32,000 bases of DNA from Candidatus Saccharimonadota bacterium (GTDB lineage Bacteria > Bacillota_I > Bacilli_A > Mycoplasmatales > Hepatoplasmataceae), in contig NZ_CP006932.1 in assembly GCF_000582535.1 (NCBI RefSeq), positions 30,001-62,000 of the forward strand. The letters run 5' to 3'. Position 1 is the first letter of the stretch. Every line of letters begins with the position of its first letter. The notes beneath the pieces are model-generated. The model searched no databases. It was not told the origin of the DNA and saw nothing but the letters and a program-made list of their open reading frames with translations. The position numbers and the translations under genes were made by a program. Of the stretch, positions 4,345-29,536 are shown one piece after another.

Positions 4345-6431
4345 ATGAAAAATGAAATAGAAAAATTGTTGAAAGAAAATACCAACGGAATTAGCTTTAA
4401 ACAATTAAAAAATCAATTAAATCTTAATAAACAAAACGATGGATATAAGTTAAATCAATGATTAAATGAACTTATAAAAGAAGAAAAAATTTTTTATCGT
4501 AAAAAAACAGAATTATATTATATTAAAGATCAAAAAAGTGTAATTGGTACTTTTCGTACTACATTTAAAGACTTTGGTTTCGTAGAAGATGAAGAAGGAT
4601 CTATTTTTATTCCAGCAAGATTTGTTCTTAATGCATTAGAAGGTGATACTGTAAAAGTAGTTTTATTTTCTGATCTTAATAATCCTAAGAAAACTGATGA
4701 TAACAGAAGAGCAGGAAAAATTGTTCGTGTTATTAAAAGAAACGGTGGAAATATTGTTGGAAGAATAAAAAAAAAAACAATAAGTTAGAATTTGTTCCTG
4801 ATGATATTGATCCTAAATATGAATATCAAATTGTAGATAATAATAATCTAAAAGAAGGACAAATTGTAATTGTTACTTTTAAAGATTTTGCTGATCGAAA
4901 AATTTATGTTACTCTTAAAAAAATTTTAGGAGATGAAAAAGATCCTAGTCTTGATTATTTATTAATAAAATATAAAAATAATCTAAAAGAAGAATTTTCT
5001 GAAAAAATAATAAATGAATTAAATAATAAGGATTTTTCAAAAGAAAAAAATCAAGAAAAGCGCATAGATTTAAAAGATCGTTTAATAGTTACAATTGATG
5101 GGGAAGAATCAAAAGATTTAGATGATGCAATTGATTTTAAGATTATAAATGATAATTTATATCATTTAGGGGTTCATATTGCTGATGTTTCTCATTATGT
5201 GAAAACAGATAGTGAGTTAGATTTTGAAGCTTATGATCGTGGTAATTCGATTTATCTTATTGATAAAGTATTTCCGATGCTACCTAAAAAATTATCAAAT
5301 GATCTTTGTTCTTTAAACCCTAAAGAAGAAAAATTAACAATATCATGTGATATGAAAATTAATAGTGAGGGTAAAATTTTAGAATCTAAAATTTATCCCA
5401 GTATTATTAAATCTTCTTATAGGTTAACTTATAATGAAGTAGATAAACTTTTAAATAATGAGATTCCTTTACTTTTTAATGATAAAAATTTATCCAAAAT
5501 GCTAATAGATGCAAATAAAATTGCAAATAAAATGCGTAAATATAAATTGCAAAATGGGATGATTGATTATCAATTAAAAGAAGTAAAAATTAAATTAGAT
5601 CAAAACGGAAATCCAATTTCTATTTATGAAAAAATTCAAACACCATCAGAGGCCTTAATTGAAGACTTTATGGTTGCTGCAAATGAGTCGGTTGCTAAAT
5701 GATTTTCAGATCATAAATTACCGACCATTTTTCGCGTACATGCAAAACCAAAATATGAAAACTTAGAACCTTTTTATAATATTTTAAAATTATTTAAATT
5801 TGAATTTAATTTTAAAAATTTAAATTCCAGAAATTTTCAGAATTTTTTAGAAAAATATAAAAATAATCAAAATATTGAAATAATTAAAAAAATAATGATT
5901 CAAGCAATGGAAAAAGCAATTTATCTTGAAAGAAATGATGGACATTATGCTTTGGGATTAAAAAATTATCTTCATTTTACTTCACCAATTAGAAGATATC
6001 CTGATCTTTATGTTCATAGATTATTAAGACTATTTTTATTTCAAAATAAAAAAGATATTGATAAAAAAGATCTATTAAATAAACTTCATGAAATTGCTAA
6101 TCATTGCTCATTAAAAGAAAAAGAAGCAATGGTAAGTGAAAGAAAATTGGCAGATATTAAAAAAGTTCGTTTTCTTGCTAATAAAGAAGGAGAAAAAATT
6201 ATTGGGACAATTGTTAATTTTTCAAATTTTGGTATTTTTGTTGAATTAGAAAATAATACACAAGGAATGATAAGATTAGATAATTTAAAATTAAGTGCAA
6301 AAAATTACGAATATGATGAAAAGAAATTTTTACTTAAAGTAGATGAAAAAAAATATCAAATTGGTGATCAAGTGTCTGTTAAAATAATTTCATTAGATAC
6401 AATAAGAGGATTAATTGAATTAGCATTATAA
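4345..6431 (+). CDS. rnr: ribonuclease R (VacB), reading frame interrupted by a 1-nt deficit in an A11 tract at 4767-4777
   Basis: The N-terminal part (4345-4785, frame 1) encodes a winged-helix plus cold-shock-like region, GTFRTTFKDFGFVEDEEGSIFIP, and ends at TAG 4786. The rest (frame 3, readable from about 4779) carries RNB motifs (TIDGEESKDLDDAI, GVHIADVSHYV, YALGLKNYLHFTSPIRRYPDL) and a C-terminal S1 domain. The total is 2087 nt, which is 3n-1. Confidence 0.85.
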
Positions 6432-6890: not shown

Positions 6891-7234
6891 GGGGGTGCAG
6901 TGGATTTGACAGTTAAGGATAAGCTTAAAGGGCAGTGGTCTAGTAAACCATAATACTATTTAAAGATAATCGGAAACGATGATTCTGCTGTTGATTTTGC
7001 TTTAATGCAAGAACAAAATTTTCAAAATTCAAACTTTGCATTAGCATAATAAATTAACACTTTAACTATTTTTTTTCGCTTGGAATTTAGTTAGAGAGGC
7101 TTACAAGCGAGTGTAGAATTATTTAAGTAGTGAGTTAAACTTACTTTGTTTGCTAATTTTTTAAATTAGATAAACTGTAGATCTTTAAGTATTTTTTTAA
7201 TTGGACTCGGGTTCGATTCCCGACACCTCCACCA
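6891..7234 (+). ncRNA. ssrA: tmRNA (SsrA)
   Basis: The 5' end GGGGGTGCAGTGGATTTGACAG pairs with the 3' end CACCTCC-ACCA, giving a 7-bp acceptor stem with a G3:U70 pair. A T-arm GGGTTCGATTCCC is present. The internal tag ORF reads GGA AAC GAT ... TTT GCA TTA GCA TAA TAA (6972-7052), encoding GNDDSAVDFALMQEQNFQNSNFALA. Confidence 0.9.
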
Positions 7235-19701: not shown

Positions 19702-20616
19702 ATGAAATATAATAATAAACAAAAAATTACCAAAGCTGTAATTCCTGTTGCGGGACTAGGAACTAGATTTCTTCCTTTTACAAAAACAATTCCAAAGGAA
19801 ATGTTACCAATTTTAAATATTCCATCAATTGAATATATTGTAAAAGATGCGGTGAATGCTGGAATTAAAGATATTATTTTTGTAACTTCTGCAAGAAAAA
19901 AAGCACTTGCAGATTATACTGATTCTTATCTTTGATTAGAAGATGAATTACGAAAAAAAAATAAAATTGAGGAGTTGAAATTAATTCAATTCCTTCCAAA
20001 AATTGCAAATTATATTTTTGTAAGACAGTCAAAACAATTGGGATTAGGAGATGCTGTATTAAAAGCAAAATATGCAATTGGTAATGAACCCTTTGCTCTA
20101 CTTTTGGGAGACGATATTTTACTTAATAATTTTAAAAATATTACAAATGATTCAATTTTAAAAAATTTAATAAATTCTTATCAAAAATATCAATCAATAA
20201 TTGTTCTTTTAAAAAAAATTGAAGGAAAAGAAATTGAAAAATACGGAGTTGTAGGAATAGAAAAAAAAATTGATCAAAAAAATTTCCTTTTAAATTCACT
20301 TATTGAAAAACCAACATTTAAAAAAGCTCCTTCAGATCTTGCAATTATGGGTCGATATATTTTAGAACCTAAAATATTTGATTATCTTGAAAAAGAGCAA
20401 ATAGATCCAAATACAGGCGAAATTCAATTAACTAATGCAATAAGTAAATATCTTCTAGATAAAAATAATGTTTATGGAGTATTATTTGAGGGTAAAAGAT
20501 ATGATATGGGAAATCTTTTGGGTTTCTTAGAAGCAAATATTGATTTTGCTCTTAATGATAAAAAATATCGTAAAGTATTTGCTGAACTTTTAAAAGAAAA
20601 AATTAAAAATATTTAA
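19702..20616 (+). CDS. galU: UTP-glucose-1-phosphate uridylyltransferase
   Basis: [27 protein letters not shown] and [13 protein letters not shown]...LLGDDI. Two fragments are joined at TGA 19933-19935. Confidence 0.9.
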
Positions 20617-20627
20617 TAATTATAATC

Positions 20628-21494
20628 ATGAAACAAATTACTTTTGAAGAATTTCAAAAATTAAATCAAGAAGGATTTATTAAGATAAATAAAGCAATAA
20701 TTTCCTTAGGAATAAAATGATGAGCTCATTCAGGTACCTTGATTGGTGTAGTTCGCGAGAATGGATTTTTATCATGAGACGATGATATTGATATGGGAAT
20801 GGCAATTGATGATTATTTAAAATATCTCGAAGATTTAAATAAAATTGCAGAAGAAAATAATTATTATTTTGCTGATCGTTTTAAAAATATAGGAATGACA
20901 GTCTCTAGATTTATTTATAAGGAAAAATTTATTATTTCTTATGAGGGAAAAAAATATGTTTCTTCTCCTTTTATAGATATAATGATTGCAATACCTTTTA
21001 AAAAAGAAAATAAATTAAAATTTAAAATTTGAGAATGACAAAATAAATATTTTTTTCTATTTAGTAGTCTTCCTCCTGTTCTTCCAAAAATTGATACAAG
21101 ATATGGTAGAGTACGCAAATTACATTGATATCATCAACTTGGCTCAGTAGTTGGACAAATATTACTTTTCTGAACAATTCCTTTATTTTATTTACAAAAT
21201 TATTGATTAAAAAAGAAAGCAAAAAATAAAAAAAAATATAAAAATTTAATTCTTTTTCATTCTTATACTTCAAGATTTTTTATATATAGAAAAGATCAAT
21301 TAATTGAAAGAAAAATTTTAAATGGAAAAACAAAAATTTATATTTCAAAATTCTATATTAAAGAATTAAATGCTTCTTTTGGAAAAAATTGAACAAAAAA
21401 ACCACCAATTGAAAAACAGATTCCTCATCACATAATTTATAATCCTTATAATCCTAAAAAGGAACCAAAAATTTATCCACATATTGTAAAATAA
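20628..21494 (+). CDS. licD: LicD-family phosphotransferase, copy 1
   Basis: WWAHSGTLIGVVRENGFLSWDDDIDMGM is the LicD/NTase-fold signature. 288 aa are read through 7 in-frame TGA codons and checked codon by codon. It is a paralog of 27578-28435. Confidence 0.8.
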
Positions 21495-21878
21495 TTAATT
21501 TTCTTTTTCAATATTATTAAAAGATTTTAAATCTTTTTCTCTTTTTAATTCTTTTTTAAAAATAAGGGGAATAGACATTATTGAAAGAAAAGATCCTATT
21601 GCATTACCTAAAGCTCCAATACAGGTAATTAAAAGGGCTTCGCTGATATCAATATCAGTAGTTCCTTCTGGTGTTGATCAATAGATAGCAATTCAAGCGA
21701 TTAATGGAACAGTAATTGATGAAATAAAAGTAGCATATACTCCATAGATTGCAGCACTTACATATCTATTTCTTTTTATTTTGAATATTTTTATATTAAA
21801 AGCCAATGATATTGTGTATTGAGCAATTAAAATTATCAAAAAGAAAACAAATAAAAATCATCCTGTATTAATGTTCAT
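21495..21878 (-). CDS. small 3-TM membrane protein, downstream member of an overlapping pair
   Basis: 127 aa reading MNINTGWFLFVFFLIILIAQYTISLAF..KIKRNRYVSAAIYGVYATFI..CIGALGNAIGSFLS. The minus strand was translated codon by codon with TGA=Trp, and no TAA or TAG was found. The K/R-rich loop and tail fit an N-out, C-in topology. Confidence 0.6.
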
Positions 21879-22227
21879 TATTTTTTTCCTTTTGTTCTTT
21901 TGCTTTTATTTTTTTATCATGACCAACTTTTTTAGATACATAAGGAACTAAAATTGCAGCAAAGAAATTACCAATCGCTGTTGCAAATGCAGCTATTAAA
22001 ATAATTCATCAAGGAGCTTGCTCTCCATCTGTTAATGCAACAACTATTAGCGGTGTAATTGCCATCGTTAATATAAATAAAAAAGATGCTACAGCTCCCA
22101 TTAATGCTGCTGTAAAAAATTGGTCTTTTGATATCATATATATTCGATAATTAAAAAAAAATCCTACTATTAATTCTACAAAAGGATATACAAATAATAT
22201 TATTAGTGCTACTTCTCAATTTTCCAT
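21868..22227 (-). CDS. small 3-TM membrane protein, upstream member of an overlapping pair and paralog of the downstream one
   Basis: 119 aa reading MENWEVALIILFVYPFVELIVGFFFNYRIYMISKDQFFTAALMGAVASF...AAFATAIGNFFAAILVP. Its stop overlaps the next gene's ATG by 11 nt (ATGAACATTAA). Confidence 0.6.
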
Positions 22228-22238
22228 TTTCTTTTTAA

Positions 22239-22273
22239 ATTTAATTAAGTATACTCTTTATATTTAATTAAGT
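22239..22273. repeat. 12-bp direct repeat ATTTAATTAAGT x2 (22239-22250 and 22262-22273) in a divergent intergenic region
   Basis: Read directly from the sequence. Each copy contains the palindrome TTAATTAA, and start-to-start spacing is 23 bp. Confidence 0.6.
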
Positions 22274-22285
22274 TATCTTAAAGTG

Positions 22286-22291
22286 TATAAT
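22286..22291 (+). promoter_or_regulatory. candidate -10 box TATAAT for the hydrolase/glycosyltransferase operon
   Basis: The consensus hexamer lies 27 nt upstream of ATG 22319. Confidence 0.3.
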
Positions 22292-22318
22292 TTTTTAGAT
22301 ATATTAAATTTATAAATT

Positions 22319-23038
22319 ATGAACAAAAAAAAAGATAATCGCGTTATATTATTAATTCATGGATTTAAGCGTGGAAATGAAAATGATTTTGAGTATTTAG
22401 AAGATCCTCTTATGAAATTTAATTTACCAATAATAAATTTTGAATATTATGATAATTATGATAAAAAAACGCTTAATTGAAAATTATTTTTTAAGAAAAT
22501 TTCTAAGCAAATGGAAGAATTGAAAGATAATGAAATAATAGTAGTTGGTTATTCTATCGGAGCAATAATTGCAATTTATTTAGAAAATTATTACCCAAAT
22601 ATAATTCAAGTTATATCAATCTATCCTGCTTTTAAAATTTATCTTTTTGATTGATTAAAAAGATTAAAAGATTTATATTTTAAAAGAAAAAGACTTAAGA
22701 AAAAAATTGGAAAAGAACGTTTTAATAAACTAAATGAAGCAGCAAAGAAAAATAAAATTGTTGAAAAGTATCCTGTAAAAATTACAAGAAATATTAATAT
22801 TTTTCGTTCAAAACTTAGAAAAAAAATAAAAAATATTAATATTAATAAAACAACTTTAATTTTATCTGAAATAGATGAAATCGTTCATTATAAAAAAACA
22901 TATAAATATATAAATAAATTTAATATAAGTGAGAAAATTATATTTTTTAATTTAAGTCATTATTCGGCAATGAAGGATGGACAAAATTTGCGTAATTTTA
23001 TTATTAGTGAAATTAAAAGATTTAATTTTGATAAATAA
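22319..23038 (+). CDS. alpha/beta-hydrolase (esterase/lipase-like)
   Basis: 239 aa, read codon by codon through the GYSIG motif (to about nt 22570) and by eye beyond it. Motifs are VILLIHGF, the nucleophile elbow VVGYSIGAI (GxSxG), a later SEIDEIV Asp and LSHYSAM His, in S-D-H order. Confidence 0.7.
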
Positions 23039-23058
23039 AAAAACTAGCATATTACAAT

Positions 23059-23775
23059 TATGAATAATATTGGTAAAATTAGTGAAAATGACAATAAAAT
23101 AATTCATTATATATGAATAAAAAATAAAGATGATATTCCAGCAAGTCAAAAAAAAATAATGAATAAGACAATAAGTCTTAATAGTGAATTTTCAATAAAA
23201 ATATGAGATTTAAATAATATTAATGATTTAAATATTAAAAGTAAGTATTTTAAAAAAGCAATTACTGAAAAAAAATGAGCTTTTGCTTCTGATTATTTAA
23301 GAGCAAAAATATTATATGAATATGGAGGTGTATATATTGATATAGATTTATATCCTTTAAAGAAATTAATTGAATTTCTTGAAGAAGAAGATGATTTTAA
23401 TTTATTGATTGGTTTTGAATATAAATATCTTATTTCTACAGGTTTTATATGAGCAAAAGAAAAAAATAATTTAATTTTAAAAAAATTATTAGAACATTAT
23501 GATTATTTTGATAATTTTAAAGAAGATAAAATTAAATTTATAGTAAATAATTATATTTGAACAAATATTTTAGTAGATGAATATAATTTAAAATTTGATG
23601 ATAAAAAACAATATTTAAAAGATAAAACTTTAATTGTTGATCATAGATATTTTTCTTCGATAAAAAAAATAAGATTAGAAAGTTATTTTTTACATAAACA
23701 TTTATTATCATGAAAAAAAAATGATTTTATGAAAAAAATAATGATGCAAATTTTAGCTTTTATACAAGAACATAA
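23059..23775 (+). CDS. GT32-like glycosyltransferase (DXD sugar-binding region family)
   Basis: 238 aa. IIHYIW..., then WAFASDYLRAKILYEYGGVYIDIDL matches the Gly_transf_sug/OCH1-like signature with a DxD motif. Confidence 0.7.
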
Positions 23776-23855
23776 AATTTTAAATATTTTCCTTAAAATC
23801 GAAATTAAATTTAAATTAAGAAGAGTCAAGAATATATATAAATATTTAATAAAAA

Positions 23856-24884
23856 ATGAACGATAAACTTAAAAGTAAAACATTTGGTGTTATTATTCCA
23901 ATTTATAATACAAAAAAAGAATGATTTTTAAAAGCAATAGATTCTGCAATAAAATCATATTTTGCAGTTGATAAAGATTTTGAAATAATAATAATAGATA
24001 ATGGTTCAGATAATAAAGATATATGAAAATATTTAAATGATAATTATAAAAAATACGATTTTATTAAATTAAAAAGATTTGATAAAAATGAAGGAAAACA
24101 AAAAGCAACAAAATATGGTTTTTATAATTTAAATGCAAAATATTTTCAAGTATTAGATTCTGATGATTGAATAGATTCTAATAAAATTAAAAATATTATT
24201 AATATTTTAAAAAAAGTAGATGGAGATATATTTTTTTTAAATTATTACTATTTTAATGATAAAAAGCAAACTATAAGAAAAGAAAGAAAAATTTATAAAA
24301 AATCTCCCCTTGATTATGTTAAATTAGAAAATATTCCAAGATCTTTTTGACATTTTAATGCAAATACAATATTTAATAAAAAATTTATGATTAATAATAA
24401 TTTTAAATTTCCAGAAACTAAAATTTATTATGAGGATGCTTATATGAATATGTGGAATTTATCTAAAATAAGAAATCCTTATTTTATTAATGATTCTTTT
24501 TATTATTATCGAGTTAATATTGGAGGAACAAATTTATCATCAACTAATAAAATGTTTGAATATATTGATTATTTTGAAAAAATGTATCGAGAGACCATTA
24601 AATTAGATTTTTCTAATAAAATTACAAGGAAGAATATGATTAATCTTTCAAGTTTACAATTTTTAACATTGTCATTTTTTTGAACATCAAAGGAAAAATT
24701 CAATGTATCTCGTAAAAAAATAAAAATTTTAAAAAAAGAAATTAAAGAAAACAAAAATTTATATTATGCAAAAGGTTTAAAAAGACCGAGAGTAACAATT
24801 ATTGGGGATTTACTTATATGAAATGGTTATTTGTTTTTTTTAATTAAACCCTTTTCAAAATTATTTATTAAATTTAGAAGATAA
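23856..24884 (+). CDS. family 2 (GT-A) glycosyltransferase
   Basis: 342 aa, verified codon by codon from ATG 23856 to nt 24387 and read by eye beyond that. Motifs are FGVIIPIYNTKKEW..., EIIIIDNGSDN, NEGKQKATKYG and FQVLDSDDWI (DxD). The C-terminus is hydrophobic. Confidence 0.8.
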
Positions 24885-24888
24885 AAAT

Positions 24889-25554
24889 ATGGAAAAAAAA
24901 ACACCTAATAAATATAATATTTGTTTAACTTATGGAACTTTTGATATGTTTCATTTTGGTCATCTTTCCCTTTTATTAAGATGTAAAAATCAATGTAATC
25001 AATTAATTGTTGGTGTTGCAACTGATAAATATAATAAATTTAAAAATAAAGAGTCATTTCAATCTGAAAATCAAAGATTTAATTTCATTAATATGCTTCC
25101 ATTTGTAGATAAAACTATTTATGAACATAATTTTTCCACACAATGAAAAAAAGATTACAAGAAATATAAGGCAAATGCAATTATTATGGGTGATGATCAT
25201 GTTGGAGAATTAGATTATTTAATTAAAGAGGGTCTTAATATTATTTATTTGAAGCGCACAACAGGAATATCCACAACAGATATTAAAGAAAAATTAAAAT
25301 GCAAAAAATATTCTTTTTTTATTCAAGAAAAATGAATTGAAACTAAAAATATATTTAATAGAATTAATAAAAATATAAATAAGAATGATCATTTTTCAAT
25401 TTTAGGAATAAGTAATAAGATTGAGGCACATTATGAACTTTATCAATTTTGAAATAATAGCAAAAAAGTAGATTTAATTTTCTTTTTTGATGATATTGAA
25501 GAAATAAATCTATTAAAAAGAAAAATTAATTACTGAAAAAAATTAAAAGGTTAG
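24889..25554 (+). CDS. tagD: TagD-like cytidylyltransferase, copy 1, with about 85-aa C-terminal extension of unknown function
   Basis: CLTYGTFDMFHFGHLSLL (HxGH) and RTTGISTTDIK are glycerol-3-phosphate cytidylyltransferase family motifs. The ORF continues through four in-frame TGA codons to TAG 25552-25554, giving 221 aa. Confidence 0.75.
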
Positions 25555-26394
25555 TCATTTAAATTTAAAGAAAATCATATAAAAGATTCATATTTTTGTT
25601 TTTAATTTTTTAATTTTAATTTCTTTTTTTATTTGTTTAAAATACTGTCTTCTTGTATTAAAGAAATTTTTATTTAAAGCATATTTTATAAAATTAGGTT
25701 TGAATGTTTTATCTATATTATTAGAGTATTTATTATAAAAATCTAATAAGATAACCAAATCATTTCAATATTCTTCTTTTTGTTTTTGATTTATTTTCCC
25801 TTTTTTTATTTTTTCCAATATATTATTGTATATAAGATAAGGTATATTAATATTTTTTCAACTAGAATCAATTCCAAAAGCCATTCCAATATATTGAAAT
25901 TCAAAGTGTTTAATATTAGTTAATAAATATTTTTTATTTTTAATTGCTTTTTTTGTTTTAAAAATCGTATTATGAGTTAATAAATTAAGTTTCTTATTAT
26001 TATATTTTTGTTCTCCACTTTTATATTTTTTATAAAATGAATGTTGTATTAGATCAACATTAGTATTAGTTAATTCATATATAAGATTTTTTAATCAATT
26101 AAAAATTATTTTATCTTTTGCTTTTATTAATTTAAAATATTTGCTGTCTATTTTTTCAAGATTTTCATATAAAAAATCCGTTTTTTTTAGATTTTTTTCA
26201 TTTTCTAAAATTGTTATCTTTTTATTAAAAGCTTTTGTAATTTTATAATTATTAATATAAATTATAATTTGTACTAAATTATCAAGAGAATTATCTTCTA
26301 AATATTTTTGGAAAAAATTAATTCTAGTAATTTCTTCTAAATTAATTTTTTCGTCAATTGTATATATAAAGCTTAATATTTTTTTGTTTTTCAC
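25543..26394 (-). CDS. hypothetical protein (Lys/Asn-rich), possibly a degenerate GT-A-like fold
   Basis: The track ORF 26095-26394 is extended through TGA codons to TAA (forward TTA at 25543-25545), giving 283 aa. The start is GTG. The N-terminal pattern ILSFIYTIDEK...VQIIIYINNY...NEKNL...YFKLIKAKDKI loosely mimics GT2 strand/helix spacing but lacks DxD. Confidence 0.4.
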
Positions 26395-26551
26395 AATATT
26401 TTGTAATTTTACACTTCTTATTATTAATTTATAATAATTATAAGAAACAAATATTTAAAATATTATCATATTTTTTATAAAAAATAATTTTTATTAATTT
26501 ATATAAATTTGTATTTATAAAATTTGCTATTATTAATATGAAGTGAAAGAA

Positions 26552-27568
26552 ATGGGATTTTTACTACAAAGAGTTAATGATGATTTTTTAAAAAAATATT
26601 TTAATAAAAATGAATATTTTGAATATTTAGAAAATATAAATTATGGAAAATACATAAATAAAGAAATTTATTCAAAAATAAAAATTTTAAATGATTATTT
26701 AAAATCAAAAGATTTCGAATTATTTAATTTTATTACAGAAAATATAATATCTTTTGATCAGGAAAATAAAAATATTTTAAAAATTTATGATGATTTTTTT
26801 ATCTATCATCAAAGAATACTTTTAATATTTTTTGAAAGTTTTACACAATTTGAGAAATTAATTAAAAACAAAATAATAAATTCTATTAATTATTTAAATG
26901 TTAAATCTCTTTATCAATTAATTAATATTATTATTAAAGATAGCAAAAAGAATGAAAAGGAATTAAAAGGATTTCCCAAAAGATGTGAAAATATTTTATC
27001 ATATTTTTGTGCTCCTAATTTAGAAGAAGTTCGTGAAAAAATCGGAATATATAATATTAATGAAAAAGATTCTTTTAATATGTTTTATAAAAAAGCAAAT
27101 AAATCAGAAAAAAGATATTTTGATTATAAATTAATAAATGAATTTTCTTTTTCTGATATTAGTGAATTTTTTGAAATTCTTAAAAAGCAAAATTATAAAA
27201 ATTATTTAAATATTAGAGATTTTATTAAAGATCTTTTGGGTGAAAAGAAATATAATAAATTTTATGAAGATAATCAAAGCGATAATGGAATAAAACCAAT
27301 TATAGATTGATTCTTATCAAATTATAAAAATGTAAAAATATTACGAAATAAAATTATGCATAATAAAGTTTTATTTGCTAATATAAAAGAATTAAATAAT
27401 GGAATAAATAGTTTATTGAAATTATCTAATCAAAAGAAAAACAATATAGGTGATATTACTTTAAAAAAATTTTTAAAAGAAACACTTTCTATTCTTGGAA
27501 AAATTAAACAAGAAAAGGCAAGGAAATTTTTTAAGGAGAAAATAATAAATTTAGAAGATAAAAATTAA
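26552..27568 (+). CDS. Abi_2 (AbiD/AbiF)-like HEPN-motif protein, candidate abortive-infection/defence protein
   Basis: Track ORFs 26543-27310 and 27356-27568 share a frame and are joined by TGA 27308-27310. The start is ATG 26552, or alternatively GTG 26543. The C-terminal region reads WFLSNYKNVKILRNKIMHNKVLF, which contains R-x4-H (27344-27361). Overall length (about 340 aa) and helix-rich composition fit Abi_2. Confidence 0.5.
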
Positions 27569-27577
27569 TAGAAATTT

Positions 27578-28435
27578 ATGAAGAAAATAAGTTTTGAGGA
27601 ATTTCAAAAATTAAATTTTGAAGGTTTTAAAAAAATAAATGAAAAAATACTACAAAATAATATAAAATGATGAGCTCATTCAGGATCATTATTAGGATTT
27701 ATTCGTGATAAAAAATTAATTTCTTGAGATGATGACATTGATATGGGGATGAGATTATATGATTTTAAAAAAAATTTTCAATTATTATCTAAAATTGCTA
27801 ATGAAGAAAATTATAAATTAATTGATAGGTTAGATTATTTTGGTCTTGATGTTGCAAGATTTATTTATAAGGAAAAATATATCATTGAATATAAAGGAAA
27901 AGAATATATATCCTCTCCTTACATTGATGTAATGATGGGTGTTTCTTCTAAAAATAATAATCTTTTGAAAAGAAAATTGTGATCTTGAACAAATAATTAT
28001 TTGTTTATATTTAATTCTTTCTGAAAACCTCTTCCATATTTTGGTTGAAAATTTAATAAAGTTAAAAAAATTCATTGATATGAACAATTTAGTGTATTTA
28101 TTGTAAGAATAATTTTATTTCCTTTATTTTTAGCTTTACCATTACAAAATTTATGATTAAAGCATAAAAGTAAAGATAAAAGTGATAAAGTTTCATTTTA
28201 TTATAATTACGATAATTTAGGAATAATATATGATGTAAATAAATTGCAAGAAAAGAAAATAAATGATTTTAAAATTTTAGTAAATGATAATTATTTAGAA
28301 GAATTAAATTTAAGATTTAAAGAATGAAAGATTTTACCCTCTAAAGAAAAACAAATTCCTCATCATATATTTCTTACACCAAATTTGAATAAATATAAAA
28401 ATAAATATAAAATAGATCCATTTATAATTAAGTAA
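27578..28435 (+). CDS. licD: LicD-family phosphotransferase, copy 2
   Basis: WWAHSGSLLGFIRDKKLISWDDDIDMGM. 285 aa, verified codon by codon through 10 in-frame TGA codons. It is collinear with copy 1 from N- to C-terminus (...KQIPHHI...). Confidence 0.8.
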
Positions 28436-28536
28436 ATAATTTTTAATTTTAATTAAATTTTTAGATAATATTATTGTTATTATTTATTTTTTAAATATTA
28501 ATTGATTAATTTTGGAATGGTTTTATAAATAATTGT

Positions 28537-28965
28537 ATGAAAAAATATAAAAATTGTATCACTTATGGAACATTTGATTTGTTTCATTATGGTCATAAAA
28601 GACTATTTAAAAGAATAGATAAATATTGTGAAAATTTAATTGTAGCAATTTCAACTGATCAATTTAATAAACTAAAAAATAAAAAAGCTTTTGATAATTA
28701 TATAGTTAGAAGTGAAAATGTTTTAAATTGTTCTCCTACTATTAAAAAAGTAATTAAAGAAGTTAATTGAGAACAAAAAATAGAAGATGTTAAAAAATAT
28801 AAAATAGATTGTTTTATTATGGGTTCTGATTGAAAAGGAAAATTTGATTATTTAGATAAGAATTGTGATGTTCTTTATTTAAGCAGAACACCTTTTATTT
28901 CTTCAACTTATTTGCGCAATAAAAAAATTGAAGAAAAAAATCTTCAAACTAATCATAACAATTAG
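28537..28965 (+). CDS. tagD: TagD-like cytidylyltransferase, copy 2 (short form)
   Basis: CITYGTFDLFHYGHKRLF (HxGH) and ...IMGSDWKGKFDYL...LSRTPFISSTYLR. 142 aa. Confidence 0.75.
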
Positions 28966-29009: not shown

Positions 29010-29087
29010 GGCGAGTGTGGCGAAGTGGTTAACGCATCGGATTGTGGTTCCGACATTTCGAGGGTTCGATTCCCTTCACTCGCCCCA
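29010..29087 (+). tRNA. tRNA-His (anticodon GUG) with encoded G-1 and CCA
   Basis: An extra 5' G pairs with C73. The acceptor stem is GCGAGTG/CACTCGC. The anticodon stem is TCGGA/TCCGA with loop TTGTGGT. The T-arm is GAGGG-TTCGATT-CCCTT. Confidence 0.92.
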
Positions 29088-29113
29088 TTTTTTTATTTTT
29101 AATTATTAATAAA

Positions 29114-29536
29114 ATGATTAATAAAGCAATTGCAAATAATGAATTTGAAACAGAAAAAATCGGAAAAGATTTAATAGTTAATTTTCCTGAAAATAAATTA
29201 ATTATTATAATTGGCGAAATCGGTTCAGGTAAAACAGTCTTGGTAAAAGGTATTGCTAAGGAATTGGGTATTTCTGATATTGTAAATTCTCCTACTTTTT
29301 CTATAAAAAAAACTTATAAAAATTTAGTTCATTATGATCTTTATTTTGCAACTAAAAAACAATTATCAATTAATGAATTTAATGCTTTAATTGCAGAAGA
29401 TTTAGTTGATAATTATGTTGTAATTGAATGGGGTGATAATTTACTTTTAAAAGATATAAAGAATTTTTTAAAAGTGAATATTACTGTACAAAAAAATCAA
29501 AAAAGAAATATTAAATGAAAATTAAAAGGAAATTAA
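29114..29536 (+). CDS. tsaE: tRNA t6A37 biosynthesis ATPase TsaE
   Basis: GEIGSGKTVLVKGIAKELGI..VNSPTFSI....HYDLY. The start is ATG 29114, after the tRNA. The ORF reads through TGA 29516-29518 to TAA 29534-29536. Confidence 0.85.

What the first reader, a model, noticed from the sequence alone, without database searches (positions are those of the whole stretch)
19702..28965. Teichoic-acid/phospho-glycan style biosynthesis locus in a presumably wall-less mollicute
Between fusA and tRNA-His lies a cluster with all the ingredients for a phospho-substituted glycoconjugate. These are a UDP-glucose supply (galU), two glycosyltransferases (GT32-like DxD and GT2), two LicD-family phosphotransferases, two TagD-like cytidylyltransferases that make a CDP-activated alcohol (CDP-glycerol by family precedent), an alpha/beta hydrolase, and two tiny membrane proteins that could act in translocation. 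LicD enzymes transfer phosphocholine, phospho-ribitol or phospho-glycerol from CDP donors. Phosphocholine glycoglycerolipids are known in Mycoplasma fermentans, and glycerophospho-glycolipids in Acholeplasma. The TagD+LicD pairing suggests a glycerophosphate (or similar) decoration of a membrane glycolipid or exopolysaccharide. No TagF/TarF polymerase, Wzx/Wzy or ABC exporter is visible, so this is not a standard teichoic acid or capsule pathway.
Basis: inference. Interest (0 to 1): 0.7.

Follow-up and report, generated by a model that had tools for sequence, protein, structure and literature searches.

The report
Glycerophosphate-glycoconjugate gene cluster in Hepatoplasma
A wall-less gut symbiont of woodlice keeps a conserved 12-gene cluster that most likely attaches glycerol-phosphate groups to a membrane sugar-lipid or surface glycan; this chemistry is known from teichoic acids and capsules but has not been described in mollicutes.

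Summary
The window must be read with genetic code 4 and is essentially Candidatus Hepatoplasma crinochetorum Av. Two further genes were overlooked: a GT2-like protein that has lost its DxD motif, and a 341-aa unknown.

The block is not strain-specific. It is syntenic in every Hepatoplasma assembly I retrieved, has no indels within the species, and all 12 genes are under purifying selection. Across the family Hepatoplasmataceae the fixed core is a short TagD orthologue next to, or one gene from, a LicD, while the glycosyltransferases vary.

The short cytidylyltransferase is 45-56% identical to solved TagD/TarD. A second "long" type always accompanies it and is fused to it in Tyloplasma. The GT2's closest solved structures are teichoic-acid glycosyltransferases. 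The LicDs are distant, full-length relatives of the M. fermentans glycolipid enzyme Mf1.

CDP-glycerol-dependent glycerophosphorylation of a membrane glycoconjugate is therefore the best reading. The product is inferred, not shown. The small membrane pair belongs to an uncharacterised 3-TM family, and a translocase role is unproven.

Verdict: new variant of a known kind, moderate interest.

The parts
19702..20616 (+). galU, UTP--glucose-1-phosphate uridylyltransferase (304 aa); supplies UDP-glucose
   Evidence: PF00483 at 106 bits. TIGR01099 galU at 302 bits is the best hit, just under the 326.8-bit cut-off. [11 protein letters not shown] motif present. 79-81% identical in H. scabrum and strain Ps.
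20628..21494 (+). LicD1, LicD-family phosphotransferase (288 aa) with one hydrophobic helix at about residues 171-189
   Evidence: PF04991 at 58 bits. The only NCBIfam hit is Mf1 (NF045866) at 26 bits over model positions 22-227 of 240. WDDDIDM, AHSGT and PHH motifs are invariant in the clade. Hydropathy.
21495..21878 (-). Small 3-TM membrane protein A (127 aa), paralogue of the next gene
   Evidence: Codes for a 3-TM protein. 23-29% identical to its neighbour. Member of an uncharacterised family. dN/dS 0.12-0.26.
21868..22227 (-). Small 3-TM membrane protein B (119 aa); overlaps gene A by 11 nt, so probably a translationally coupled hetero-oligomer
   Evidence: AF2 model at pLDDT 93 shows three long helices. 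No PDB fold match; best E = 3. No Pfam family. Homologues lie directly downstream of tagD-licD in L090, but next to efp and dNK genes in Bathynomus symbionts.
22319..23038 (+). alpha/beta-fold serine hydrolase (239 aa); role unknown (esterase, lipase or acyl-remodelling candidate)
   Evidence: Hydrolase_4 at 25.7 bits, just under the 27-bit cut-off. UPF0227 at 22.0 bits against a 21-bit cut-off. Weak Abhydrolase_1 and _2 hits. GYSIG nucleophile elbow visible in the sequence. 82-85% identity between species, dN/dS 0.10-0.15.
23060..23866 (+). GT32-like DxD glycosyltransferase (268 aa)
   Evidence: PF04488 at 47 bits, PF12919 at 32 bits, PF05704 at 26 bits. DID motif in YIDIDLYP. Two paralogues occur in the Tyloplasma locus.
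23856..24884 (+). GT2 (GT-A fold) glycosyltransferase (342 aa) with a helical C-terminal domain and a hydrophobic or amphipathic tail; no TM segment
   Evidence: PF00535 at 78 bits. AF2 model at pLDDT 85.7. Top PDB folds are RmlT, TarP and TarS, E about 1e-13, TMq 0.60-0.65. D48, DSD101-103, E193-D194 and Y218 are present. Fused to cytidylyltransferase domains in P0138 and P0139.
24889..25554 (+). Long (L-type) TagD-like cytidylyltransferase (221 aa): catalytic domain plus an extension of about 85 aa
   Evidence: PF01467 at 57 bits. TIGR01518 at 107 bits against a 165-bit cut-off. 97 bits to TarD 2B7L. HFGH and RTTGISTT are kept, but GDDHVGELDYL replaces GDDWEGKFDFL.
25543..26394 (-). GT2-like protein (283 aa) lacking the DxD motif (KAKD instead), with a hydrophobic C-terminal tail; candidate pseudo-enzyme or scaffold.
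   Evidence: PF00535 at 18 bits, E = 0.0027, below cut-off. hhalign to the Tyloplasma GT2-like protein, which keeps DPDD, gives E = 3e-4. Alignment. dN/dS 0.14-0.16.
26543..27568 (+). Unknown 341-aa protein, conserved in the genus; carries an Rx4H (LRNKIMHN) motif.
   Evidence: No Pfam, NCBIfam or PADLOC hit. 62-64% identity in other Hepatoplasma species, dN/dS 0.37-0.44. Only a weak motif-level match to a Tyloplasma protein.
27578..28435 (+). LicD2, LicD-family phosphotransferase (285 aa), 47% identical to LicD1
   Evidence: PF04991 at 47 bits. Mf1 model at 31 bits over positions 2-233 of 240. Identical protein in several H. crinochetorum assemblies.
28537..28965 (+). Short (S-type) TagD orthologue (142 aa), predicted glycerol-3-phosphate cytidylyltransferase that makes CDP-glycerol
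   Evidence: TIGR01518 at 127 bits against a 165-bit cut-off. 123 bits to B. subtilis TagD 1COZ and 120 bits to S. aureus TarD 2B7L, compared with 32 bits to ECT and 26 bits to CCT. 45-48% identity to TagD/TarD, with HYGH, KNKK, NWEQK and GSDWKGKFD conserved.

Best explanation
The block is a cytoplasmic-face pathway that builds a glycerophosphate-substituted membrane glycoconjugate in a wall-less bacterium. The product is most likely a glycoglycerolipid or short lipoglycan, in effect a small lipoteichoic-acid-like molecule.

Proposed steps:
1. GalU makes UDP-glucose.
2. The peripheral-membrane GT2 and the GT32-like enzyme build or extend a glycosyl head group on a membrane-anchored acceptor.
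3. The short TagD orthologue converts CTP and sn-glycerol-3-phosphate into CDP-glycerol. Hepatoplasma has glpF and glpK.
4. The two membrane-associated LicD paralogues transfer glycerol-phosphate from CDP-glycerol onto sugar hydroxyls. They would act either at two positions or one after the other, as fukutin and FKRP do with ribitol-phosphate.

The long TagD-like paralogue is always present with the short one. It either forms a heterodimer with it or activates a second phospho-alcohol.

The hydrolase, the DxD-less GT2-like protein, the 341-aa unknown and the 3-TM pair are conserved accessories whose roles are unassigned. The 3-TM pair is the only candidate in the block for moving the product to the outer leaflet.

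Shown: gene content, family relationships, conservation, selection, gene linkage and fusions.
Inferred: donor identity, acceptor identity, order of steps and export.
For: - Gene families.
- Short cytidylyltransferase: 45-56% identical to solved TagD/TarD. It scores 123 bits against TagD and no more than 32 bits against ethanolamine- or choline-phosphate enzymes.
- Linkage: TagD and LicD are adjacent or one gene apart in Hepatoplasma, GLR43, Tyloplasma, L090 and L091, while the partner glycosyltransferases change between GT2, GT32 and GT8.
- Relatives: GLR43 adds pgm and a PF04464 CDP-glycerol glycerophosphotransferase in the same neighbourhood.
- Fusions: L-type and S-type TagD are fused in Tyloplasma, and a degenerate CT, TagD and GT2 are fused in P0138 and P0139. 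These tie the cytidylyltransferases and the GT2 to one pathway.
- LicDs: catalytic WDDDIDM, AHSGT and PHH motifs are invariant. By sequence the only solved relative is the CDP-ribitol enzyme FKRP. The only NCBIfam hit is the glycolipid-acting Mf1, matched over its full length. Each LicD has one hydrophobic helix.
- GT2: it has no TM segments, so it is not a synthase or exporter type. It has a GT-A domain plus a helical domain like TarP, TarS and RmlT, and the same length and catalytic-residue layout as the lipid glycosyltransferase MG517.
- Selection: all 12 genes are under purifying selection, and there are no indels among four assemblies.
- Substrate supply: glycerol uptake and kinase genes are reported for Hepatoplasma (PMC10928387).
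Against: - No biochemical or lipid data exist for this uncultivated organism.
- Both TagD-like proteins and GalU score below the NCBIfam equivalog cut-offs.
- The LicDs score only 26-56 bits against Mf1, whose cut-off is 225, so the acceptor cannot be transferred by homology.
- The GT2's closest solved folds glycosylate polyol-phosphate polymers, not diacylglycerol. No direct comparison with MG517 was possible.
- No recognisable flippase or exporter is present. The 3-TM pair lies far from glycan genes in the Bathynomus symbionts and in L092.
- The role of a second, differently pocketed cytidylyltransferase is unexplained.
Confidence: 0.55

Rival explanations
1. The locus makes a true teichoic-acid-like polymer or capsule, for example poly- or oligo-(glycosyl-glycerol-phosphate) on a lipid anchor. 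LicD-type phosphotransferases and glycosyltransferases would act alternately in place of a TagF polymerase, and the product would be exported by an unrecognised route.
For: - The GT2's best solved structural neighbours are the wall-teichoic-acid glycosyltransferases RmlT, TarP and TarS.
- There are two LicDs and two or three GT-like proteins.
- TagD-GT2 fusions occur in relatives.
- Related loci carry a TagB/TagF-type enzyme (GLR43), or large polytopic membrane proteins, several GT8s, a pyruvyl transferase and GalE (Tyloplasma and L091). These are typical of polysaccharide loci.
- Hepatoplasmataceae form mats on gut surfaces (PMC10928387).
Against: - In the window there is no polymerase (PF04464), no Wzx/Wzy, no ABC exporter and no synthase-type multi-TM GT2.
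- LicD enzymes are known as single-addition transferases. This rests on my knowledge of the LicD and FKRP literature.
- The large membrane proteins of the relatives are absent here and are unrelated to the 3-TM family.
Confidence: 0.2
2. The locus makes a phosphocholine- or phosphoethanolamine-substituted glycoglycerolipid like the GGPLs of Mycoplasma fermentans. The TagD-like enzymes would act as CDP-choline or CDP-ethanolamine synthases.
For: - The LicDs' only curated-family hit is Mf1, matched over its full length.
- Mf1 accepts both CDP-choline and CDP-ethanolamine (PMC11982090).
- The L-type cytidylyltransferase has altered alcohol-side residues. It scores 45 bits to human ECT, so it might activate another phospho-alcohol.
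- Host tissue is rich in choline and ethanolamine.
Against: - Both cytidylyltransferases match TagD/TarD far better than ECT or CCT: 123 and 97 bits against 26-45 bits.
- There is no choline kinase (LicA), choline transporter (LicB) or LicC in the block.
- Mf1 scores are 26-56 bits against a 225-bit cut-off.
- A relative pairs the same module with a CDP-glycerol glycerophosphotransferase.
Confidence: 0.12
3. The block is a decaying or non-functional remnant of an ancestral Firmicute teichoic-acid or capsule locus and has no current product.
For: One member (the 283-aa GT2-like protein) has lost the DxD motif. No exporter is recognisable. The genome is highly reduced.
Against: - All 12 ORFs are intact in every assembly.
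- dN/dS is 0.10-0.46, like neighbouring housekeeping genes.
- Differences within the species are mostly synonymous, and there are no indels over 9.5 kb.
- A 0.65-Mb genome keeps 9.3 kb for the block.
Confidence: 0.03

Closest known systems
Mycoplasma fermentans GGPL pathway (Mf3 glucosyltransferase plus Mf1 LicD-family cholinephosphotransferase)
   Same: A wall-less mollicute in which a glycosyltransferase makes a glycosyl-diacylglycerol and a LicD-family enzyme adds a phospho-alcohol from a CDP donor at the cytoplasmic face. The Hepatoplasma LicDs match the Mf1 model over its full length.
   Different: Only distant homology: 26-56 bits against a 225-bit cut-off. The donor-forming enzymes here are TagD-type (CDP-glycerol), not choline-related. 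There are two LicDs and two cytidylyltransferases. The GT2, GT32-like and accessory genes are not described for M. fermentans.
Gram-positive CDP-glycerol pathways: TagD/TarD with TagB/TagF (wall teichoic acid), and TagD-like (Gct) plus LicD-family transferases in streptococcal capsule loci (the capsule example is from my own knowledge)
   Same: A TagD orthologue (45-56% identity). The logic of a CDP-activated polyol-phosphate transferred onto a glycan. A GT2 whose fold is closest to the teichoic-acid glycosyltransferases TarP, TarS and RmlT. A relative (GLR43) even has a PF04464 enzyme.
   Different: The window has no TagO/TagA primer enzymes, no TagB/TagF, no TagGH exporter and no LCP ligase, and the organism has no wall to attach the product to (PMC3942034). 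The anchor must be a membrane lipid.
Fukutin / FKRP / ISPD (tandem ribitol-phosphate on alpha-dystroglycan)
   Same: Two LicD-fold paralogues, together with a dedicated cytidylyltransferase, transfer a polyol-phosphate from a CDP-polyol onto a glycan. By sequence, FKRP is the only solved relative of these LicDs.
   Different: That system is eukaryotic, acts in the Golgi lumen, uses CDP-ribitol made by an IspD-fold enzyme, and has a protein O-mannosyl glycan as acceptor. Similarity here is limited to the catalytic motif.
MG517/MPN483-type GT2 glycoglycerolipid synthases of Mycoplasma
   Same: 342 aa against 341 aa. A GT-A domain of about 220 residues with Asp, DxD, an E193-D194 pair and Tyr218 in place of the usual His. 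No TM segment, and a C-terminal region ending in a hydrophobic or amphipathic helix.
   Different: No direct sequence or structure comparison could be made. The homology search returned no mycoplasma glycolipid synthase at E <= 1e-5.

Membership tests
LicD family (PF04991) phosphotransferases | Match to the family HMM above the gathering score | tested here: met
   LicD1 58.3 bits and LicD2 46.8 bits against a 22.6-bit cut-off.
LicD family (PF04991) phosphotransferases | Conserved catalytic acidic motif (DxDxD-type, as in FKRP) and GxLLGxxR nucleotide-binding stretch | tested here: met
   WDDDIDM and AHSGTLLGxxR are invariant in 15 clade members. This stretch aligns to FKRP 294-332.
LicD family (PF04991) phosphotransferases | Transfers a phospho-alcohol from a CDP-alcohol donor | not testable with these tools
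   Needs an enzyme assay.
Mf1 diacylglycerol/glucosyl-DAG cholinephosphotransferase (NF045866 equivalog) | Score at or above the equivalog cut-off (225 bits) | tested here: not met
   26, 31, 45, 54 and 56 bits for five clade members, although the alignment covers nearly the whole model. They are distant relatives, not orthologues.
Glycerol-3-phosphate cytidylyltransferase TagD/TarD (TIGR01518) | Score at or above the equivalog cut-off (165.4 bits) | tested here: not met
   127 bits (short) and 107 bits (long). Both are below the cut-off, but TIGR01518 is clearly the best-scoring model.
Glycerol-3-phosphate cytidylyltransferase TagD/TarD (TIGR01518) | HxGH and RTxGISTT catalytic motifs; the Lys44/Lys46 region; the NWEQK and GDDWEGKFD substrate-side motifs of solved TagD | tested here: met
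   The short form has HYGH, KNKK, NWEQK, GSDWKGKFD and RTPFISST, and is 45-48% identical to 1COZ and 2B7L. The long form keeps HFGH and RTTGISTT but has QW and GDDHVGELD. The feature is met for the short form and only partly for the long form.
Glycerol-3-phosphate cytidylyltransferase TagD/TarD (TIGR01518) | Closer to TagD than to the choline- and ethanolamine-phosphate cytidylyltransferases | tested here: met
   Short form: 123 bits against TagD, 32 (ECT) and 26 (CCT). Long form: 97 bits against TarD, 45 (ECT) and 32 (CCT).
GalU (TIGR01099) | Equivalog score (326.8 bits) | tested here: inconclusive
   302.5 bits over the full model length. It is by far the best hit but sits slightly below the cut-off.
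Classical wall teichoic acid pathway | TagO/TagA primers, a TagB/TagF (PF04464) primase or polymerase, the TagGH ABC exporter and an LCP ligase | tested here: not met
   None of these domains occurs in the 12 genes. PF04464 is present only in the relative GLR43. The rest of the genome was not searched.
LtaS-type lipoteichoic acid pathway | A polytopic LtaS sulfatase-fold polymerase that uses phosphatidylglycerol | tested here: not met
   No such domain occurs in the block. The genome outside the window was not searched.
MG517-type GT2 glycoglycerolipid synthase | A GT-A domain with D40, DxD, an E193/D194 base and Y218, plus a C-terminal amphipathic membrane-binding helix and no TM segment (PMC3849446, PMC6506492) | tested here: inconclusive
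   Equivalent residues D48, DSD101-103, E193-D194 and Y218, and a hydrophobic C-terminal tail, are present. No MG517 sequence or model was available for alignment. The AFDB library was unavailable.
Known small lipid or glycan flippases and transporters (SMR/ArnEF, GtrA, Wzx, SemiSWEET, Fluc) | Family HMM match or fold similarity | tested here: not met
   No consistent Pfam hit in 39 family members. For the pLDDT-93 model the best PDB Foldseek E-value is 3, with SMR Gdx at TM 0.23 and Fluc at about 0.35.

The most novel reading that the evidence does not exclude
Hepatoplasmataceae, although wall-less, make a genuine membrane-anchored teichoic-acid-like polymer, with repeating glycosyl-glycerol-phosphate units. 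They would assemble it without a TagF polymerase, by alternating LicD-type and GT2/GT32 transferases. A heterodimeric TagD (S-type plus L-type) would supply the donor, and a previously unknown hetero-oligomeric 3-TM translocase would move the product outward. This polymer would be the matrix that lets the symbiont coat the host brush border.
Probability: 0.12. Interest if true: 0.75.

Novelty: new variant of a known kind. Interest (0 to 1): 0.42.

Why it matters
Mollicutes have no wall, so their surface chemistry is carried by membrane lipids, lipoproteins and occasional glycans. The only LicD-dependent decoration described in mollicutes is phosphocholine on the glycolipids of M. fermentans.

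A conserved, selected CDP-glycerol/LicD module across a whole family of crustacean gut symbionts would add an anionic, teichoic-acid-like surface molecule to mollicute biology. It would be made by a different route from the LtaS and TagF pathways of walled Firmicutes.

It gives a concrete candidate for how Hepatoplasma adheres to and coats the hepatopancreas brush border. About 1.4% of a 0.65-Mb genome is spent on the block.

It also flags three uncharacterised components for study: the L-type TagD paralogue, a DxD-less GT-A protein and a rare 3-TM family.

The genes are already annotated by family name in public records, and the chemistry has precedents, so this is an incremental rather than a categorical novelty.

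Tried and rejected
1. Table-11 ORF calling gave only fragments. I replaced it with code 4.
The 341-aa unknown could therefore not be modelled, and its HEPN-like Rx4H motif stays a lead only. hhalign to the Tyloplasma protein gave 5% probability, and there were no Pfam or PADLOC hits.
4. I first read the three small genes after licD in L090 as a fragmented GT2. Code-4 translation and an HMM search showed they are three members of the small 3-TM family.
5. I tested whether the large polytopic membrane proteins of Tyloplasma and L091 are concatenated 3-TM units. They are not. Two multi-stretch hits in the profile search (P0229, P0239) are unrelated repeat proteins.
6. The promoter and terminator scan was uninformative in this AT-rich DNA: 92 promoter-like sites found against 103 expected, and no terminators.
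7. Phase variation through homopolymer tracts: A8-9 runs are no denser than elsewhere in the window, and there are no length differences among four assemblies. Rejected.
8. Strain-specific island: rejected.
9. Literature searches linking TagD or CDP-glycerol to mollicutes, and for a glycerophospho-glycolipid precedent in Acholeplasma, found nothing relevant.

Full report
**Source and reading frame.** The window has about 20% G+C. With table 11 the region between fusA and tRNA-His breaks into short ORFs. With genetic code 4 it resolves into 12 closely packed genes. The GT2 protein is 100% identical, and LicD2 is identical, to proteins of Candidatus Hepatoplasma crinochetorum Av (657,101-bp genome). 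LicD1 is 99% identical to strain Tokyo2021. This organism is an extracellular, uncultivated mollicute that lines the midgut-gland brush border of terrestrial isopods. It is reported to lack a cell wall entirely (PMC3942034; PMC10928387).

| Gene | Coordinates | Strand | Evidence |
|---|---|---|---|
| galU | 19702-20616 | + | TIGR01099, 302 bits |
| LicD1 | 20628-21494 | + | PF04991 |
| LicD2 | 27578-28435 | + | PF04991 |
| Small membrane protein A | 21495-21878 | − | 3 TM |
| Small membrane protein B | 21868-22227 | − | 3 TM |
| alpha/beta hydrolase | 22319-23038 | + | GYSIG elbow; Pfam hits near the cut-offs |
| GT32-like DxD transferase | 23060-23866 | + | PF04488 |
| GT2 | 23856-24884 | + | PF00535 |
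| TagD-like, long (221 aa) | 24889-25554 | + | PF01467 |
| TagD-like, short (142 aa) | 28537-28965 | + | PF01467 |

Two genes inside the block were not mentioned. The first is a 283-aa protein on the minus strand (25543-26394) with a sub-threshold GT2 match whose DxD motif reads KAKD. The second is a 341-aa protein (26543-27568) with no family match in Pfam, NCBIfam or PADLOC. No TagB/TagF, Wzx/Wzy, ABC-exporter or LtaS domain occurs in the block.

**Conservation.** It is not.
- The same 12 genes in the same order lie between fusA and tsaE in H. crinochetorum Tokyo2021, in two metagenomic assemblies, in strain Ps and in Ca. H. scabrum.
- Amino-acid identity between species is 61-85% for every gene, including the unknowns.
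- Four assemblies of the species differ by 0.2-0.8% over 9.5 kb, with no indel. Most of these differences are synonymous.
- Against the other species, dN/dS is 0.10-0.46 for all 12 genes. The neighbouring housekeeping genes tsaB and asnS give 0.19-0.31.

The block is therefore functional and maintained in a 0.65-Mb genome.

**The invariant module.** Full-length relatives of these LicDs are confined to Hepatoplasmataceae and unnamed relatives in metagenomes. Elsewhere only the N-terminal catalytic motif matches. In five divergent lineages the LicD gene is adjacent to, or one gene from, a short TagD-like gene, while the partner genes change.

| Lineage | Gene content around the module |
|---|---|
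| Hepatoplasma | licD2-tagD, within the 12-gene block |
| GLR43 | galU-pgm-tagD-licD-licD-GT2-long tagD beside rpsL-rpsG-fusA, followed by two GT4 genes and a PF04464 CDP-glycerol glycerophosphotransferase |
| Tyloplasma litorale | GT32, fused double TagD, GT32, LicD, GT2-like, a 775-aa polytopic membrane protein, GT8, GalE fusion |
| L090 | tagD-licD followed by three small membrane proteins |
| L091 | licD and tagD with three GT8 genes, a pyruvyl transferase and a polytopic membrane protein homologous to the Tyloplasma one |

Gene fusions tie the parts together. Tyloplasma fuses a long-type and a short-type cytidylyltransferase domain into one 301-aa protein. Proteins P0138 and P0139 fuse a degenerate cytidylyltransferase domain, a TagD domain and the GT2.

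**The donor.**
- The short cytidylyltransferase is 45-48% identical to B. subtilis TagD and S. aureus TarD. Its orthologues in relatives reach 56%.
- It keeps HxGH, the Lys-x-Lys stretch, NWEQK, GxDWxGKFD and RTxxISST.
- It scores 123 bits against solved TagD, 32 bits against ethanolamine-phosphate cytidylyltransferase and 26 bits against choline-phosphate cytidylyltransferase.
- It falls below the strict NCBIfam equivalog cut-off (127 against 165 bits).

CDP-glycerol is the best-supported product. The TagB/TagF-type enzyme next to the same module in GLR43 fits this, as do the glpF and glpK genes reported for Hepatoplasma.

The long form keeps both catalytic motifs but has different residues on the alcohol side (xQW, GDDHxGELD) and an extension of about 85 residues. 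It occurs wherever the short form and the GT2 occur. In one lineage its counterpart has lost HxGH. It may be a heterodimer partner or may activate a second phospho-alcohol. This is unresolved.

**The transferases and the acceptor.**
- *LicDs.* Both retain the invariant WDDDIDM, AHSGT and PHH motifs and one hydrophobic helix. By sequence their only solved relative is FKRP, a CDP-ribitol ribitol-phosphate transferase. Their only curated-family hit is Mf1, the M. fermentans enzyme that adds phosphocholine to glucosyl-diacylglycerol. The alignment covers almost the whole model but scores only 26-56 bits against a 225-bit cut-off.
- *GT2.* It has no transmembrane segment, so it is not a synthase or exporter type. 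Its confident model (pLDDT 85.7) shows a GT-A domain, a helical domain and a poorly ordered hydrophobic tail. Its best solved structural neighbours are RmlT, TarP and TarS, the cytoplasmic GT2 enzymes that glycosylate wall teichoic acids (E about 1e-13, TMq 0.60-0.65).
- *Comparison with MG517.* The GT2 has the same length and the same catalytic-residue layout as the M. genitalium glycolipid synthase MG517: Asp, DxD, E193-D194, Tyr218 and a C-terminal membrane-binding helix. MG517 has no solved structure, and the AFDB library was unavailable. The two acceptor models, a lipid or a polyol-phosphate chain, could not be separated.

**The small membrane proteins.**
- The two genes overlap by 11 nt and are paralogues (23-29% identity). 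Each protein has three long helices.
- They belong to a rare family: 46 clusters among 1.84 billion representatives. Members occur in tandem sets of two or three.
- The family has no Pfam model, and the pLDDT-93 model has no structural neighbour in the PDB.
- Linkage to the pathway is mixed. Three family members lie directly downstream of tagD-licD in L090. In the Bathynomus symbionts Bg1 and Bg2 the pair lies between efp and deoxynucleoside kinase genes, and in L092 it lies beside unrelated genes.
- A translocase role is possible but unsupported.

**Most likely mechanism.** This is inferred, with confidence about 0.55.
1. GalU supplies UDP-glucose.
2. The GT2 and the GT32-like enzyme build a glycosyl head group on a membrane-anchored acceptor at the inner leaflet.
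3. The short TagD makes CDP-glycerol.
4. LicD1 and LicD2 add glycerol-phosphate to the sugars.

The product would be an anionic glycerophospho-glycolipid or short lipoglycan. It would then have to reach the outer surface by an unidentified route.

**Rival explanations.**
- A real polymer assembled by alternating LicD and GT steps (0.2).
- Phosphocholine or phosphoethanolamine decoration as in M. fermentans (0.12).
- A non-functional remnant (0.03, contradicted by the selection data).

**What is known and what is new.** The two Hepatoplasma genome papers do not mention LicD, glycosyltransferases, cytidylyltransferases or teichoic acids. Searches linking TagD or CDP-glycerol with mollicutes found nothing relevant. 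LicD homologues in mycoplasmas are discussed only as Mf1-type phosphocholine transferases. The logic of a CDP-polyol plus a LicD-family transferase is established elsewhere: in FKRP and fukutin and, from my own knowledge, in streptococcal capsule loci. The genes already carry family-level names in public records.

I therefore class this as a new variant of a known kind, of moderate interest. It would be the first predicted CDP-glycerol/LicD surface-decoration pathway in mollicutes. It is conserved across a symbiont family and has three uncharacterised accessory components.

Noticed in passing
window 4345-6431 (frameshift near 4765-4777): The RNase R-like gene is split into two reading frames at an (A)11 homopolymer run. 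This could be a sequencing error, a pseudogene or slippage.
   Followed up: partly
window 26543-27568; L009 6288-7109: The unknown 341-aa protein carries WFLSN...LRNKIMHN, an Rx4H (HEPN-like) motif. A 273-aa Tyloplasma protein just upstream of that genome's glycan locus shares the motif.
   Followed up: partly
window 25543-26394 (minus strand): A GT2-like protein has its DxD replaced by KAKD, yet it is among the most constrained genes of the block (dN/dS 0.14-0.16). The Tyloplasma counterpart keeps DPDD. It may be a pseudo-enzyme or scaffold.
   Followed up: partly
L009 8021-8926; proteins P0138 and P0139 (L094 10001-11764): Domain fusions occur in relatives. Tyloplasma has one 301-aa protein with a long-type and a short-type TagD domain. 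P0138 and P0139 combine a degenerate cytidylyltransferase domain (no HxGH), a TagD domain and the GT2.
   Followed up: yes
L090 10864-11869; L088 10001-10730; L092 2602-3317; L093 386-1077: The small 3-TM family always occurs as tandem sets of two or three paralogues. Sometimes the set lies next to tagD-licD and sometimes in unrelated neighbourhoods such as efp/dNK or DUF2779.
   Followed up: yes
L007 13681-17618: The marine relative GLR43 has two GT4 genes and a PF04464 TagB/TagF-type CDP-glycerol glycerophosphotransferase directly after fusA. This sits beside its galU-pgm-tagD-licD-licD-GT2-tagD block, so the locus is closer to a teichoic-acid pathway than the one in the window.
   Followed up: partly
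L009 11624-13951; L091 11243-13279: Homologous large polytopic membrane proteins (775 and 678 aa; 24% identity, E = 6e-17) accompany the TagD-LicD module in Tyloplasma and in an unnamed relative. They have no Pfam family and are unrelated to the 3-TM family. They are candidate polymerases or exporters in those lineages.
   Followed up: partly
window 6891-7234: A tmRNA gene with tag peptide GNDDSAVDFALMQEQNFQNSNFALA.
   Followed up: no
window 29042-29536 against tRNA-His 29011-29087: The longest code-4 ORF for tsaE (TTG start at 29042) overlaps tRNA-His. Public annotation of the orthologue uses a later start giving 140 aa, so the true start is probably near 29114.
   Followed up: no
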